Below, in pieces: positions 23,501 through 64,000 of a DNA stretch of 64,000 nucleotides. Source of the stretch: Octopus vulgaris (lineage: Eukaryota); contig OX597833.1 in NCBI GenBank assembly GCA_951406725.2, positions 22,382,001 through 22,446,000 on the forward strand. Direction: 5' to 3'. The stretch's first letter is position 1, and every line of letters starts with the position of its first letter. The position numbers were made by a program.

Positions 23501-26500
23501 GGAGCGATCCGTCTGGTTGATTCCGATAACGAACGAGACTCCGGTCTGCTAACTAGATGTTATCCATTGCTGAGCAGATAGATTTCATGAATAGACCATC
23601 CGCCCTTCCTCATTACTTATAGAATTCAAGTGTGGAAATTGTGTCGGTTGCATTGCCAACTACTAAAGAGCAGTGAGCATCTAACTACGTTTCGGATATC
23701 AGACACCCAGGCTTGGTTTTTGTTTGAATCAGAACTGTAACTCCAACCAAAAGACGAACTGTGTAAAAACGTTCCTATCAAACGACTATAACCACTCCAG
23801 GAACCTCTGCAGTCTCCACAATCCCACCATATTGAAGAGGGTGTTGGACATCACCTTTAGTAGACCGCCTAACCAGTGGAATGTGCTTCTTCCATAAGAA
23901 AAGAAAGAATAGACTCTCATTTGGTCAGGGGAAAACTGGGGTAGGGCACAACGAAACTATAATGAAATCGATGCATGTATTCACCATCTCTGCATGACCT
24001 TTCAAGGACAGCTTTACCTCAGCCCATTTCTGGATGAGGCTGTCACCATGTTTGTAACCTGCTCCCAGTTCCTATCCACCTGGAAGTCTAATCAGACTAG
24101 ATCTTCTAAAGCAGTGAACTTGCCTCTCCAGCTGTAGTGCTGCAAGCTTACAGACTTGCCTAGATTAATCTTTTCTCCTGTCACCATTTTGATCCCTTAT
24201 GGCTCTGACAACCTCGACATTCGCAGTGCCCTACACATTTACAGTAACGTTGCTCAGCACTCCAGTTCAGACGAAATGCCCCTCAAATCCTCCAGTTTCT
24301 GCGGCAGTGGTTCAAGAATAATTACATACAGAAGGAATTACAGAGAATATTGTCGATGCGTTGAGCATCTGGTTCGAAACAATTACGATAGCTAACAGTT
24401 TAGTCTGACAACTGAAAACGGGACTGAAATTGACCATTTTGAAGACAACCACATAGTAACGATGGCTGACAGTTGGTCCAAATTTATCAGAGCAATACTA
24501 AAACCGTATTTATTATCTCCCAACTCTACGATGTATCATCCAAAGCGGAAGCTGTTGTAGATAGGTTTTTCCTGAGATCACACAGGTCTTCGCTTTTCCG
24601 ACAACGCTACGAATGACTAGCACCGATCTTCTCTAAGAGTATGTTATTCAAAATCTTAAAACTTTGGTTTCAGCACTAACTTATAGAAATTGCAGTTTTT
24701 CCATCTTTACCCCTTTCTCCTATCGGCAAGTCTTGCATAATCCCGACATTCGATTAAAGTAGCAAATCAATTTCACCTAGTACTTAAATGTGGGACATTC
24801 CCCCAAAAGCTGCTAGATATATCATTGCTTTGCCCGGTTGAGATATGGATGACCACTAGTCTGAAGGCACTGCTTTCATTACTGTTCACATCGACTTATC
24901 ACCCGTACTTCGAGATCCAAACCTTTGCCACCCCACTTCTCTATCTGGAACGATATACGAAGCGTAAACTCGTAATCGTTGAAGATGAGCTGCTGTCTAC
25001 ATTTCTATATTCTTCCCCGAATATAGTCGTGTTGGTCCGAAAAAGGAAAGTAAGAGACGTCATTCACTTTTGCCTCAAAGGACTGGTAATCTGGACTCCT
25101 TGGTGGACAGGGGTTTCTTAAAAGGATCCTCCAAAAATGTCCTGGAACATTTCTACATTACCTACGAATATTTTTCTTAGATGTTTTTTTCTCAAGAAAA
25201 CTTTTTCAGCTGCGGCCGGATTTTCTCAAAAAATTCCACCCTATGTAGTTTTGGTCTCCCCACCCCTGAAGCTTATGAACTTTTTTTTTTATTTACAAGT
25301 GAAATCAACGAGGGATGGTTATTGAGCTTGGTTACTAGTATTCTTTGTGTTCGCATATTATTTTTGTGGTAATGGCTGATCGAGAGGCTTTGTTTCCTCA
25401 TTGAACTATATTTCTCTTCCCAGAAAAGAAAAAAAAGGCAGTGTTCAACAGATTAATCTCAATCTTGTTGCATGGCGAAATTTCGGAATCTGAACAGTTA
25501 TGTATACCAATGTTTTGCTTTCAGTCAACATCTCTTTTACCAGCCTTATTTAGTTTACAAATGGCATGTATTTTAAAGCATTTCACTATCAACACACAAG
25601 TCTCCACAATACCCATAACTTTGTGATAGCTTAGCATTTACAATGACTTAGGAAGTGATACATTCTTGGATAGTTTTCCACTCAGCACTAATTTTACATT
25701 GGAAAATACTTTCATGATTGGATGGGCAAAAGTAGACGAAGGCGTAAGTGCTGATCAGATTTCTTTACAGATTCAGTATTAACAATGATGTAGTGAAGTC
25801 GCATCAGAAAATAAAAATTGAAATGCAAAAGTATGACAGACTATTGGCTCTTTACAGTGGATTTTGTCACTGCAATACTCATATGATCAACAAAGAGTGG
25901 TTAATATGAGAAAGACTAATTGAATTTAGGTTTTCTTGTATTTCTGAAGTTTGATTTGTTATGATTAATTTGCAATGAGAAAACCCAGATACTGATTTTT
26001 ATTACTACACTTAGTGAAAACAAACATAAAAGAAAAACCCCTAGAAGTACATTAACTTTTCTATCCATGTTGAGGTGTAGATAAAATATATTGGAAAGTG
26101 AAACAGTTTCAGAAGAAATGAGATAAAAGCAATAATGTTACAAGTAAAACTTTATTCTTCATATATTACAAAAAATTGAAAGACAAGTAAAATATACAGT
26201 TAGAAATTTCAAATGTTTCTTTAGAATATTACTTACAAAAATCAATATGCCACTGAAGTAAAATATTTATTTAGATAATGTAATCATTAGCTGACACAAT
26301 GCAAAGGGAATTATTACACACTGCTACAATTACCTGTTATGGAGTATCACCTATCCTAAATAAAAGTCACTAGACAAAAGTATTTAACTGTAGGCTGCAA
26401 CTTGGAATTAAAAACTAATTCCAATACCACTATGGAAAAGCTGACATAAAATGACAATGTAATTATCTTTGACTTATTGGGCCTATTTTCCATTGAATTC

Positions 26501-62500: not shown

Positions 62501-64000
62501 ATGAACCAGTCTCTTCAACATATATAGCAGTCTTAGAAGTTTACACATCATCAACAACCATCAGGTTTCATAATAGACATCACTATGTTGAGGTTCTTTT
62601 TCAAGTAGCTCTTATTAGATATTTCAGAGCTGGCACCAGCCTACATAAGATTTTCAACCACACTTGCCAGTCTTCATTGTATTGCCAATCTCCATCAGAT
62701 GTTCTAAAGTTGCCATTGATCTCCAGATGTCCAACAAGACTTGCTATCAGTCTCCAAATGTTCAATCAGTCAACACTACTCTCCAGATGATCCACCATAG
62801 TTACCACTAGTCCCTTGTCCAACTCCTCAAATATGAAAATGTCTGAAAACAAAGCAAAAGAAACCACTTCTTTCCTCCAAATTTACCAGTCTTGTTGACA
62901 TTTGTAGATGTCCAAACACGTGTGCACAGTAACTACGATAATAATTAGTTGAATTCTATCAAATATTTCGTCCAAAAGTTGCAACGAGTTGGTTATCAAC
63001 TACAGATGTCATCCACATCTAGAGAAAAAAATAGTCAAAGAAAAGCTCACCTCTTCTTTCAATCTCACTAATTGGTGATGATGAGCCAGTCTCTTCGATA
63101 CATGAAGCTGTTTCATTATGTCTTAAAGCAGACACCACTAAGCTATGCAATGATTCTTTTCTAAGCAGCGCTTATTAGGAATTCAGACCTGTCACCATTT
63201 CCATTAGTAGTTCTGCCACATTTGTCACCAGTGTGTCATATGTTCCATCACAGTCGCATCCAGTCACAAATCTTTTATCATAGAGCTGTCTCCAGTTAGT
63301 TGTCAATTATAGATGTCATCATTTTCTGCAAAAGAAAACCTCAGAGAAGAAAAACTCACCTCATCATTCAGCTTCACAAATCAGCATAGTCTCTGCAATA
63401 TACAAAAGTTGCCTCAGACACTCAAATCATCATCAGTCGTCAAGTTTCTTTGCAAGCATCGTTGAGGTACTTGGGAGTTTCTCTTGTGTTACCATCACTC
63501 ATCAACCGTCAAATACTGGACAAATGAAAATAGGCCTGAAATTCAAGCAAAATGTACCTCCACTTCAGTTTCCAGATGTTACATCACGGTTGGTACCCAT
63601 CTCTAGACATTACATCATGGTTGCCACCAGTCTCCATAAGATTCTATTACAATTGCCACCAGTGCCCATCAGATGATTCTATTAGTTGCCACCAGTCACT
63701 ATCACATGTTCATCTGTTGCTACCAGTCACCATCAGCTGCTCCAGCTTTTGCTACCAGTCACCATCAGATGCTCCACCTGTTGCTACTAGTCACCATCAG
63801 ATGCTCCATCTGTTGCTACCAGTCACCATCAGTTGCTCCATCAGTTGCTACCGCTCACCATCAGATGCTCCATCAGTTGCTACCAGTATTATCTCGAACT
63901 CCATGAAAATTGCTAACAGCCTTTTCTACCAATTTCCAGTAAACAAATGTTCTATTAGTAGGCACCATCTTCTACTGTATTATCCTTCAGACTATTTTCT

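What the first reader, a model, noticed from the sequence alone, without database searches (positions are those of the whole stretch)
26130..64000. Candidate giant repeat-built lncRNA: splice-cassette array, then a ~14-kb satellite terminal exon and poly(A) signal
Seen: reading the minus strand gives over 24 kb of modules with ~50 splice cassettes, then ~13 kb of 44-bp repeats with no such cassettes, then an AT-rich segment ending in AATAAA (26156-26151). The minus strand is persistently G-rich and C-poor, monomer lengths are not multiples of 3, and there is no long minus-strand ORF. Established: chromatin-regulatory lncRNAs such as Xist, marsupial Rsx and roX are built from tandem repeat domains. 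Inference: this may be an architectural or chromosome-regulatory RNA. Cephalopods have a Z sex chromosome and, from memory, sex-biased Z-linked lncRNAs have been reported; I cannot tell from sequence whether this locus is one of them.
Basis: inference. Interest (0 to 1): 0.8.

Follow-up and report, generated by a model that had tools for sequence, protein, structure and literature searches.

The report
Octopus strand-biased repeat block, possible lncRNA
A block of at least 37 kb of nested, one-directional, non-coding tandem repeats lies next to the octopus CTU2 gene and carries splice-site-like motifs on one strand, so it could be a giant repeat-built non-coding RNA gene, but nothing available here shows that it is transcribed.

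Summary
From about 26.7 kb to the window end, the minus strand is G-rich and C-poor. It has a 12.6-kb field of 44-nt repeats whose centre is a 96%-identical 132-nt higher-order array. Next to it lies a 23.5-kb array of diverged modules, each built on a ~180-nt core that reads purine tract, GTGAGT, pyrimidine tract, CAG. Acceptor-like sites on the minus strand number 40 in the module array (4.4 expected) and 0 in the 44-nt field. The plus strand almost lacks donor motifs. Neither strand looks protein-coding.

CTU2 exons are 100% identical to Octopus vulgaris.

- Strand bias and uniform orientation follow from head-to-tail duplication.
- AATAAA at 26156 is one of five in an AT-rich tail.
- Only 19 of 38 aligned cassettes keep both GT and AG.
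- The donor and acceptor inside one cassette are too close (~35 nt) to form an intron.

Transcription, genome-wide copy number and chromosome could not be tested. My best reading is a minus-strand, local-repeat non-coding transcription unit (about 0.42). An inert nested satellite is nearly as likely (0.35). The published octopus Z lncRNAs (Zmast, Zfest) exist, but nothing links this locus to them.

The parts
40493..64000 (-). Module array, which runs off the window end. It consists of diverged head-to-tail modules, with strong cores spaced 0.3-3.3 kb apart (median about 0.85 kb). Each module has a ~180-nt conserved core plus a variable run of 31-34-nt units.
   Evidence: BLAST of one module gives 114 HSPs, all in one orientation, at 60-84% identity. 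A profile search of the minus strand gives 51 hits between 40493 and 63430, 21 of them above 50 bits. There are 40 distinct acceptor-like sites on the minus strand, against a shuffle mean of 4.4 and maximum of 10.
56444..56614 (-). Example of a full type-A cassette core. It reads: exon-like block, GAAAGAAGAG purine tract, GTGAGT, T-rich tract with CAG, second T-rich tract with GCAG, then ATGAGGATGACATCTGTAATTGAC...
   Evidence: Profile hit of 129.6 bits, alignment rows and column conservation. In the fold, the purine tract pairs with the following pyrimidine tract and the GU sits in the loop.
40632..40798 (-). Last (3'-most on the minus strand) full cassette. The last acceptor-like AG of the whole block is at 40683.
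62799..62912 (-). Example of a degenerate type-B cassette. The GTGAG is replaced by GTGGTTTC and the TTTTCAG acceptor-like site is kept. It lies about 230 nt 3' of a type-A donor.
45844..47559 (-). Expanded runs of the 31-nt unit inside modules.
   Evidence: TRF finds 45847-46091 (period 31) and 46357-47542 (38.6 copies, 89% matches). Lag 31 is the top period.
52050..55541 (-). Expanded runs of the 34-nt unit inside modules.
   Evidence: TRF finds 52287-53834 (46.1 copies, 76%) and 54842-55541 (20.9 copies, 75%). Lag 34 is the top period.
47951..49460 (+). Foreign insertion and the only break in the strand bias. It holds a 330-aa plus-strand ORF and ends near an AATAAA. It looks like a 5'-truncated retroelement lying antisense to the proposed transcript. 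The type is not established.
   Evidence: Skew and GC jump, ORF 47973-48965, no Pfam family, and only a non-significant match to an RNA-directed DNA polymerase chain (E 0.59). Ends read.
26700..39330 (-). Field of 44-nt repeats, diverged at both ends. It has no acceptor-like site on the minus strand.
   Evidence: TRF rows from 28545 to 38542, lag-44 autocorrelation, extension to about 39.33 kb, 0 acceptor-like sites in 26700-40682, and a sequence read at the 3' end.
32167..37237 (-). Recently homogenised centre of the 44-nt field: a 132-nt higher-order unit made of three 44-mers.
   Evidence: TRF gives 38.6 copies at 96% matches. The 38 unit lengths are 132 (23), 131 (7), 129 (3), 133 (2), 130 (2) and 68 (1).
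25900..26699 (-). AT-rich tail after the last repeat. It has five minus-strand AATAAA (26656, 26598, 26271, 26156, 26003).
1..14319 (-). CTU2, on the same strand and downstream of the block. Exon 1 starts at 14319 and the gene runs off the window start. It serves as the species anchor.
   Evidence: Single-exon search gave 98% identity to O. vulgaris CTU2. tblastn of that protein gave five exon matches at 100% identity.

Best explanation
What it is (shown). This is a nested tandem-repeat block of at least 37 kb in Octopus vulgaris or a near-identical octopus. It lies 12 kb upstream of CTU2 and in the same orientation.

How it was built.
- One module was duplicated head to tail many times. The module has a ~180-nt core with a GAAAGAAGAG purine tract, a GTGAGT donor-like site and one or two pyrimidine-tract/CAG acceptor-like sites. 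A run of 31-34-nt units follows the core.
- On the 3' side (minus strand) lies a 12.6-kb field of 44-nt units. Its centre was recently homogenised as a 132-nt higher-order repeat.
- Both domains share the words CAACTGTGA and TGGTGACAAC in the same orientation.
- Neither strand behaves as protein-coding.

How it most likely works (inferred). The block is a non-coding RNA polymerase II transcription unit read on the minus strand.
- Exon-like units would run from an acceptor, through the 31-34-nt repeats and the conserved block, to the purine-tract/GTGAGT donor.
- The donors would most plausibly be joined to the acceptor-only type-B cassette about 230 nt downstream or to the next module. They would not join the acceptor 35 nt away in the same cassette.
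- After the last acceptor (40683) the RNA would continue through the 44-nt field as a terminal exon of about 14.5 kb. It would end at one of the AATAAA in the AT-rich tail.
- The product would be a G-rich, poorly structured RNA. It would display more than 100 copies of a short motif, which makes it a multivalent platform for an RNA-binding protein. This is the same logic as hsr-omega-n, Firre RRD or Xist repeats.

The start of the unit lies beyond the window.
For: Strand-specific signals.
- The module array has 40 distinct acceptor-like sites on the minus strand, against a shuffle mean of 4.4 and maximum of 10. The plus strand has 11 against 11.9.
- GTRAGT on the plus strand occurs once in 25 kb of modules and never in 12 kb of the 44-nt field.

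Domain switch. There are 0 acceptor-like sites from 40682 down to 26700.

Conservation.
- Among 18 strong modules the core has 65% mean pairwise identity. The 200-nt blocks on either side have 54-55%, and a shuffled control 35%.
- Among 20 strong copies, mean agreement with the consensus is 0.83 for the purine tract, 0.77 for the TTTTGCAG tract and 0.74 for GTGAGT. The mean over all columns is 0.68.
- The donor G and T are kept in 18 and 16 of the 20 copies. The acceptor A and G are kept in 18 and 17 of 20.

Resemblance to real sites. The cassette resembles real splice sites of the neighbouring CTU2 gene, for example a donor followed by gtgagttttcttac.

Non-coding.
- The longest minus-strand open stretch is 87 aa in the 44-nt field and 144 aa in the modules.
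- 0 of 56 minus-strand open stretches of at least 55 aa match Pfam.

Few insertions. There is one foreign insertion (about 1.5 kb, antisense) in about 37 kb. The genome is reported as ~66% repeats (abstract of PMC13282606), and the modules are old enough to have diverged to 54-65% identity.

Age. A related repeat exists in O. bimaculoides (P0011, a 177-aa 'uncharacterized protein'). The family therefore predates a split given as 13-34 My for O. bimaculoides and O. sinensis (passage of PMC10925132).

Annotation gap. The O. vulgaris lncRNA annotation discarded transcripts more than 80% covered by repeats (passage of PMC10700109). Absence from that annotation would therefore not count against this reading.
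Against: - No expression data of any kind could be consulted.
- All cassettes descend from one ancestral sequence, so 40 sites are one origin event that was amplified, not 40 independent signals.
- The excess conservation of the core is modest, and alignment difficulty in the variable flanks inflates it.
- Strict GTRAGT donors on the minus strand are fewer than composition predicts (12 against 23.8).
- Only 19 of 38 aligned cassettes keep both GT and AG.
- The donor and acceptor of one cassette are 33-36 nt apart, which I take from general knowledge to be too short for a metazoan intron.
- The purine tract and the following pyrimidine tract can also be read as a plain inverted repeat or hairpin.
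- AATAAA is not specific: 5 lie in the tail and 10 inside the repeats on the same strand.
- Folding gives no sign of selected RNA structure, with z-scores of -1.3 to +1.3 for 8 segments.
- The scarcity of insertions can also result from array turnover.
Confidence: 0.42

Rival explanations
1. Inert nested satellite or macrosatellite. The block is a product of unequal crossing-over and replication slippage with no dedicated RNA product. The splice-like cassette is a relic (for example of a captured exon boundary) or a low-complexity purine/pyrimidine hairpin. It has simply been copied along with the module.
For: - The organisation is head to tail in one orientation.
- The periods are nested: 31, 34 and 44 nt, plus a 132-nt higher-order repeat at 96% identity, which shows recent homogenisation.
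- Unit-length heterogeneity is typical of slippage.
- The strand bias is explained by ancestry alone.
- GTRAGT is not enriched.
- Half of the cassettes are degenerate.
- There is no RNA structure and no Rfam family in the block.
Against: - The core, with its donor and acceptor dinucleotides and purine tract, is kept better than its flanks in modules that are otherwise 45% diverged.
- The switch from 40 acceptor-like sites to 0 at the domain border is sharp.
- The modules are not homogenised, yet they carry almost no transposon insertions.
- A relative is present in O. bimaculoides.
Confidence: 0.35
2. Part of a larger minus-strand gene whose promoter and any coding exons lie beyond 64 kb. The block would be a repeat-filled intron set and/or a very long 3' UTR, not an independent lncRNA.
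For: The array runs off the window end, so the 5' end is unseen. The AT-rich tail with AATAAA looks like an ordinary 3' end.
Against: No coding exon is detectable in 38 kb: 0 of 56 minus-strand open stretches match Pfam. The modules continue unchanged to the last base of the window.
Confidence: 0.1
3. Precursor of small RNAs: a one-strand piRNA-type cluster or a repeat-derived siRNA source.
For: The region is a long one-orientation block. The single transposon fragment lies antisense to the proposed transcript.
Against: piRNA clusters of the transposon-trap kind are mosaics of many transposon fragments (general knowledge). Here 1 fragment occupies about 4% of 37 kb. No small-RNA data are available.
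Confidence: 0.08
4. Plus-strand protein-coding repeat gene, as the O. bimaculoides model A0A0L8FND8 would suggest. It would encode 31-, 34- or 44-residue His/Cys/Ser/Pro-rich repeats.
For: - Plus-strand open frames reach 570 aa.
- A 177-aa O. bimaculoides protein model aligns to plus-strand frames in 104 HSPs at 33-66% identity.
Against: - All three plus frames are open at once, because the strand is G- and A-poor (stop trinucleotide frequency 0.015 against 0.056).
- 11 of 38 higher-order units have lengths that shift the frame.
- GTRAGT occurs once in 25 kb and never in 12 kb on this strand.
- There is no credible Pfam family. The HipN and other rows have 0 stretches that pass on their own.
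- Only 2 proteins among 1.84 billion representatives match, one of them weakly. A second module ORF matches none.
Confidence: 0.03

Closest known systems
Drosophila hsr-omega (the hsr-omega-n nuclear transcript)
   Same: [quoted passage not shown] These are read into a polyadenylated, nucleus-limited RNA of more than 10 kb. Organisation rather than sequence is conserved (passages of PMC1636489). Here a 12.6-kb repeat field follows the last acceptor-like site and precedes an AT-rich tail.
   Different: - hsr-omega has two unique exons and one intron. Here the 5' part is itself an array of at least 21 repeated modules.
- The repeat unit is 280 nt there and 44 nt here.
- Transcription, nuclear retention and speckle formation are shown for hsr-omega and unknown here.
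Mammalian Firre and its local repeats (RRD)
   Same: A lncRNA locus built of repeats that recur within the locus. One repeat, RRD, coincides with exons: 7 of 13 human and 11 of 23 mouse exons (PMC4820808, abstract and sections 5-6). This matches the idea of a repeated exon-plus-splice-site cassette. Here the module words are absent from the 26-kb flank.
   Different: - Firre repeats are interspersed with unique sequence. Here nearly everything is repeat.
- Locus restriction is shown genome-wide for Firre but only within this window here.
- The RRD function (nuclear retention) is experimental.
Xist, Rsx and roX dosage-compensation lncRNAs
   Same: Long non-coding RNAs whose functional domains are tandem repeats (general knowledge; they are named as comparators in the discussion of 10.1101/2024.12.09.627507).
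   Different: Sex linkage, sex-limited expression and chromosome coating define these RNAs, and none could be tested. Their repeats are islands in unique sequence, not a wall-to-wall array.
Octopus Zmast and Zfest
   Same: The same genus, and long transcripts classed as non-coding (10.1101/2024.12.09.627507, sections 4 and 8).
   Different: - Zmast is an 18-kb locus at 19.5589-19.5769 Mb of O. vulgaris chr16.
- Zfest is 13.8 kb and antisense to Amnionless.
- The text mentions neither CTU2 nor tandem repeats (0 occurrences each).
- This block is at least 37 kb, and no Amnionless-family match appeared among the 72 window ORFs scanned.
- The chromosome of this window is unknown.
Satellite or macrosatellite arrays with higher-order repeats
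   Same: Head-to-tail arrays, a higher-order unit at 96% identity, and diverged array edges.
   Different: Most of the block is not homogenised (54-65% identity between modules). It also carries a conserved splice-like core. Classical satellites are not defined by either feature.

Membership tests
Dosage-compensation lncRNAs (Xist/Rsx/roX type) | Long RNA without coding capacity that contains tandem-repeat domains | tested here: met
   No long minus-strand ORF, 0 of 56 Pfam matches and repeat domains present. This holds for the DNA only; the RNA itself is not shown.
Dosage-compensation lncRNAs (Xist/Rsx/roX type) | Encoded on the sex chromosome | not testable with these tools
   CTU2 lies on a 73,562,531-bp O. 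vulgaris sequence.
Dosage-compensation lncRNAs (Xist/Rsx/roX type) | Sex-limited expression and coating of the chromosome | not testable with these tools
   No RNA-seq or imaging data were available.
Octopus Zmast | 18-kb locus at chr16:19.5589-19.5769 Mb (OCTVUL_1NCB338440) | tested here: inconclusive
   This block is at least 37 kb, larger than the stated locus. The position of the window is unknown.
Octopus Zfest | Antisense to the Amnionless gene | tested here: not met
   No Amnionless-family match among the 16 and 56 window ORFs scanned. The only gene recognised is CTU2. Not every plus-strand ORF was scanned.
hsr-omega-type architectural RNA gene | Several kb of short tandem repeats forming the 3' end of the unit, before a poly(A) site | tested here: met
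   A 12.6-kb field of 44-nt repeats, then an AT-rich tail with AATAAA. This is a DNA layout only.
hsr-omega-type architectural RNA gene | Nucleus-limited polyadenylated transcript that organises RNA-binding proteins | not testable with these tools
   No expression or localisation data.
Local-repeat lncRNA (Firre type) | Repeats confined to the locus | tested here: inconclusive
   CAACTGTGA occurs 112 times in the block and 0 times in the 26-kb flank. Outside the block there is only one weak profile hit (E 0.11).
Local-repeat lncRNA (Firre type) | A repeat that coincides with exons | not testable with these tools
   Splice-like boundaries are present, but there are no transcript models.
Classical satellite DNA | Head-to-tail monomers homogenised to high identity | tested here: inconclusive
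   Met for the 132-nt array (96%). Not met for the modules (54-65%) or the edges of the 44-nt field (62-77% matches).
Classical satellite DNA | Many arrays or a large genome share | not testable with these tools
   No octopus genome collection is on hand. A paper search for octopus satellite monomers listed nothing relevant.
One-strand piRNA cluster | Mosaic of transposon fragments, mostly antisense | tested here: not met
   There is one foreign fragment of about 1.5 kb in about 37 kb.
Repeat-protein gene on the plus strand | One reading frame maintained across units | tested here: not met
   11 of 38 higher-order units shift the frame. Three frames are open together.

The most novel reading that the evidence does not exclude
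The block is the body of a very large (over 40 kb primary transcript), spliced, nuclear architectural or chromosome-regulatory RNA of octopus. It would be built almost wholly from local repeats: a multi-exon array of duplicated splice cassettes feeding into a 14.5-kb satellite terminal exon. It would possibly be Z-linked and sex-biased. That would make it the first lophotrochozoan RNA with an Xist/Rsx/hsr-omega-like design.
Probability: 0.07. Interest if true: 0.85.

Novelty: new member of a known kind. Interest (0 to 1): 0.45.

Why it matters
If the block is transcribed as proposed, it would be a rare case of an RNA gene assembled almost entirely by duplicating an exon-with-splice-sites cassette and a short satellite. 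It would sit in a clade where sex-chromosome dosage compensation and candidate regulatory lncRNAs have only just been described.

It would also show that annotation pipelines that drop transcripts made mostly of repeats, as the O. vulgaris one did, can hide the largest non-coding genes.

If it is not transcribed, it remains a clean example of how tandem duplication alone can produce gene-like features: strand bias, arrays of perfect splice motifs and very long open frames on the opposite strand. That is a useful warning for sequence-only scans.

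Tried and rejected
- **Rfam (gathering) over the whole window.** The only match is an 18S fragment outside the block. No tRNA was found.
- **RNA folding of 4 segments on both strands.** The z-scores run from -1.3 to +1.3, so there is no sign of selected structure. The first attempt was over the size limit.
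- **Pfam on plus-strand repeat ORFs.** The HipN, DUF4745, Syntaxin and GAPES3 rows have 0 stretches that pass alone. I rejected them as summed repeat noise.
- **Protein searches with repeat ORFs.**
  - One O. bimaculoides model at 59% identity.
  - Nothing for a second module ORF.
  - Two of 1.84 billion representatives, the second a weak match to an unnamed hypothetical protein that I did not use.
- **Common origin of the 44-mers and the 31-34-mers.**
  - BLAST gives 0 HSPs between sequence above 39.5 kb and the 44-nt field.
  - Only 9-10-nt words are shared. I therefore state common origin as plausible, not shown.
- **Chromosome assignment.**
  - There are no lengths or CTU2 mentions in the Zmast preprint or the genome paper.
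  - The same holds for the sex-determination preprint and the qPCR sexing paper.
- **Type of the 47.95-49.46 kb insertion.** No Pfam family matched, and the only solved-structure match is non-significant.
- **Not done.**
  - No structure prediction, complex prediction or atlas search was made, since no protein claim is made.
  - The one open contig collection holds only bacteria and archaea, so I did not use it.
  - CTU2 was searched one exon at a time.

Full report
**Where we are**

The window holds no N. On the minus strand, five stretches between 14319 and 3017 are 100% identical to the Octopus vulgaris CTU2 protein. A single-exon search had already pointed to O. vulgaris at 98%, Argonauta hians at 92% and a cuttlefish at 76%.

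The window is therefore O. vulgaris or something nearly identical. CTU2 starts at 14319 and runs off the window start. I searched CTU2 exon by exon and compared the named protein with the window. I did not build or search a joined spliced model.

Between CTU2 and the finding lie two other features:
- an LTR retrotransposon on the minus strand. Pfam finds integrase, RNase H, reverse transcriptase and a weak gag match (E 0.0008, below Pfam's cut-off). The 254-nt direct repeats at 18480-18733 and 23046-23299 are 90% alike;
- a 244-nt fragment of 18S rRNA at 23423-23666.

**The observation**

- **Strand bias.** From 26.7 kb to the window end the minus strand has G/C ratios of 1.61-2.23, against 1.02 in the flank. 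In 400-nt bins the bias breaks only at 47.8-49.4 kb, where a G+C-richer foreign piece with a 330-aa plus-strand ORF is inserted.
- **The 44-nt field.**
  - TRF finds a 44-nt period at 31942-37236.
  - Inside it is a 132-nt higher-order unit at 32167-37237, with 38.6 copies at 96% matches.
  - Lag-44 autocorrelation leads from about 27 to 40 kb.
  - BLAST shows 44-nt-like sequence up to about 39.33 kb.
- **The module array.**
  - From 40.5 kb on, the block consists of diverged modules.
  - One module finds 114 HSPs at 60-84% identity, all in one orientation.
  - A profile of the core, run on the minus strand only, finds 51 copies between 40493 and 63430. Of these, 21 score above 50 bits and are spaced 0.3-3.3 kb apart.
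  - Some modules have blown up their internal 31-nt or 34-nt units into arrays: 46357-47542, 52287-53834 and 54842-55541.
- **The tail.** The repeats stop near 26.7 kb and give way to an AT-rich tail.

**The cassette**

The core consensus reads as follows:
- an exon-like block;
- GAAAGAAGAG;
- GTGAGT;
- TTTTCTTTTCAG;
- ATATTTTCTTTTGCAG;
- then ATGAGGATGACATCTGTAATTGAC.

An 18-nt word from it occurs 16 times at 3 or fewer mismatches. All 16 are on the minus strand, against 0.08 expected.

Counts in the 38-row inclusion alignment:
- GT is kept in 25 of the 27 copies that cover it;
- the second AG is kept in 24 of 30;
- both are kept in 19;
- about 13 copies have a GTRAG donor.

A second, degenerate class (type B) has lost the GTGAG but keeps a TTTTCAG. 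It sits about 230 nt downstream of a type-A donor.

**Is it more than chance?**

As copies of one ancestor the cassettes are not independent, so raw counts overstate the case. Three things go beyond mere amplification.

1. **The signals are strand- and domain-specific.**

   | Region | Minus-strand acceptor-like sites | Shuffle | Plus-strand |
   |---|---|---|---|
   | 40683-64000 | 40 distinct | mean 4.4, max 10 | 11 (shuffle 11.9) |
   | 26700-40682 | 0 | mean 0.7 | 2 |

   The last acceptor-like site is at 40683. The plus strand has one GTRAGT in 25 kb of modules and none in the 44-nt field.

2. **The core is kept better than its surroundings.**
   - Mean pairwise identity is 65% for the core. 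The 200-nt blocks on either side have 54-55%, and shuffled sequence 35% (18 modules).
   - Within the core, agreement with the consensus is 0.83 for the purine tract, 0.77 for the TTTTGCAG tract and 0.74 for GTGAGT. The mean over all columns is 0.68 (20 copies).

3. **Insertions are few.** The block has a single foreign insertion in about 37 kb. The genome is reported to be ~66% repeats (abstract of PMC13282606), and the modules themselves are old and unhomogenised.

Against this:
- strict GTRAGT is not enriched on the minus strand (12 against 23.8 in shuffles);
- the excess conservation is modest;
- the flank alignments are handicapped by variable repeat runs;
- the purine tract followed by pyrimidine tracts can also be read as a plain hairpin.

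**Coding?**

Neither strand looks coding.

Minus strand:
- the longest open stretch is 87 aa in the 44-nt field and 144 aa in the modules;
- 0 of 56 open stretches of at least 55 aa match Pfam.

Plus strand:
- it has open frames up to 570 aa, and 72 of the 78 ORFs of at least 100 aa;
- all three frames are open together, because the strand is poor in G and A;
- 11 of 38 higher-order units have frame-shifting lengths;
- donors are missing;
- the Pfam rows are summed noise;
- only one real relative exists in the protein collections. It is a 177-aa 'uncharacterized protein' of O. bimaculoides at 59% identity, which aligns to many modules at 33-66%.

That relative shows that the repeat family exists in another octopus. 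[quoted passage not shown] I cannot tell whether the relative lies at the syntenic place.

**How it most likely works**

The layout fits a minus-strand non-coding transcription unit.
- Exon-like units run from an acceptor, through the short repeats, to a purine tract and donor.
- The donor and acceptor within one cassette are only about 33-36 nt apart. From general knowledge I take this as too short for a metazoan intron. Any splicing would have to join a type-A donor to the type-B acceptor about 230 nt on, or to the next module.
- After the last acceptor (40683) the RNA would run about 14.5 kb through the 44-nt field. It would end at one of five AATAAA in the tail (26656, 26598, 26271, 26156, 26003).
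- The RNA would be G-rich and unstructured, with fold z-scores from -1.3 to +1.3.
- It would carry CAACUGUGA 112 times and GGUGACAAC 90 times. Neither word occurs on the other strand of the block or in the flank.

All of this is inference from DNA. No expression data were within reach.

The rival, that this is an inert nested satellite whose cassette merely hitch-hikes, is nearly as likely. Smaller rivals:
- part of a larger gene starting beyond 64 kb;
- a small-RNA precursor. The near absence of transposon fragments argues against a classical piRNA cluster;
- a plus-strand repeat protein.

**Comparison with what is known**

- **hsr-omega of Drosophila** has the closest layout. It has a spliceable 5' part, then 5-15 kb of short tandem repeats read into a polyadenylated nuclear RNA. 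Organisation rather than sequence is conserved (passages of PMC1636489).
- **Firre** is the closest precedent for a repeated exon cassette. Its RRD local repeat makes up 7 of 13 human and 11 of 23 mouse exons (PMC4820808, abstract and sections 5-6).
- **Octopus Z lncRNAs.**
  - Zmast is an 18-kb locus at chr16:19.5589-19.5769 Mb and is male-specific.
  - Zfest is 13.8 kb, antisense to Amnionless and female-biased (10.1101/2024.12.09.627507, sections 4 and 8).
  - That text mentions neither CTU2 nor tandem repeats.
  - This block is larger than Zmast.
  - No Amnionless match appeared among the ORFs I scanned.
- **Chromosome.** I could not find which chromosome carries CTU2. It lies on a 73,562,531-bp sequence.
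- **Annotation.** The O. vulgaris annotation dropped candidate lncRNAs more than 80% covered by repeats (passage of PMC10700109). A transcript from this block could therefore be missing from it.
- **Literature.** A search for octopus satellite monomers listed nothing relevant. A search for 'Zmast' found only the preprint.

**Verdict**

| Reading | Probability |
|---|---|
| Minus-strand local-repeat non-coding transcription unit | ~0.42 |
| Inert nested satellite | ~0.35 |
| Genuinely architectural or chromosome-regulatory RNA (the boldest reading) | ~0.07 |

Interest is 0.45.

Genome-wide copy number, synteny, chromosome and expression stayed unchecked.

Noticed in passing
window 23423-23666 (+): A 244-nt fragment of eukaryotic 18S rRNA (model positions 1225-1478, 103 bits) sits alone in intergenic DNA just outside one LTR of the retrotransposon.
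   Followed up: no
window 18480-23299 (-): An LTR retrotransposon with integrase, RNase H and reverse transcriptase Pfam matches plus a weak gag match (E 0.0008, below Pfam's cut-off). Its direct repeats (18480-18733 and 23046-23299) are 90% alike. The RT and RNase H frames are separated by an in-frame stop, and the integrase is in another frame, so the copy looks decayed.
   Followed up: partly
window 47951-49460 (+): This is the only foreign insertion in the repeat block. It is G+C-richer, holds a 330-aa ORF with no Pfam family and only a non-significant polymerase match, and ends near an AATAAA. It lies antisense to the proposed transcript.
   Followed up: partly
window 100-240, 3611-3776, 5242-5454, 7820-8032: Short 24-26-nt tandem repeats and a recurring element occur inside CTU2 introns. 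The element translates to similar peptides in several places (for example ...FYVAP...LFMWHQH...). This is probably a dispersed octopus repeat family.
   Followed up: no
window 56455-56600 (-) and other type-A cassettes: In the predicted fold, the purine tract before the donor pairs with the pyrimidine tract after it and puts the GU in the loop. The cassette is thus also an imperfect inverted repeat.
   Followed up: partly
window 34227-35939 (+): A 570-aa open frame lies on the strand opposite the proposed transcript. It gets a Pfam 'HipN' E-value of 2e-10 with no single stretch passing, which shows how repeat ORFs can produce spurious family hits.
   Followed up: yes
window 39330-40490: A spacer of about 1.2 kb between the 44-nt field and the first full cassette shows weaker strand bias (skew -0.07 at 39.4 kb). 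It matches neither repeat family clearly.
   Followed up: no
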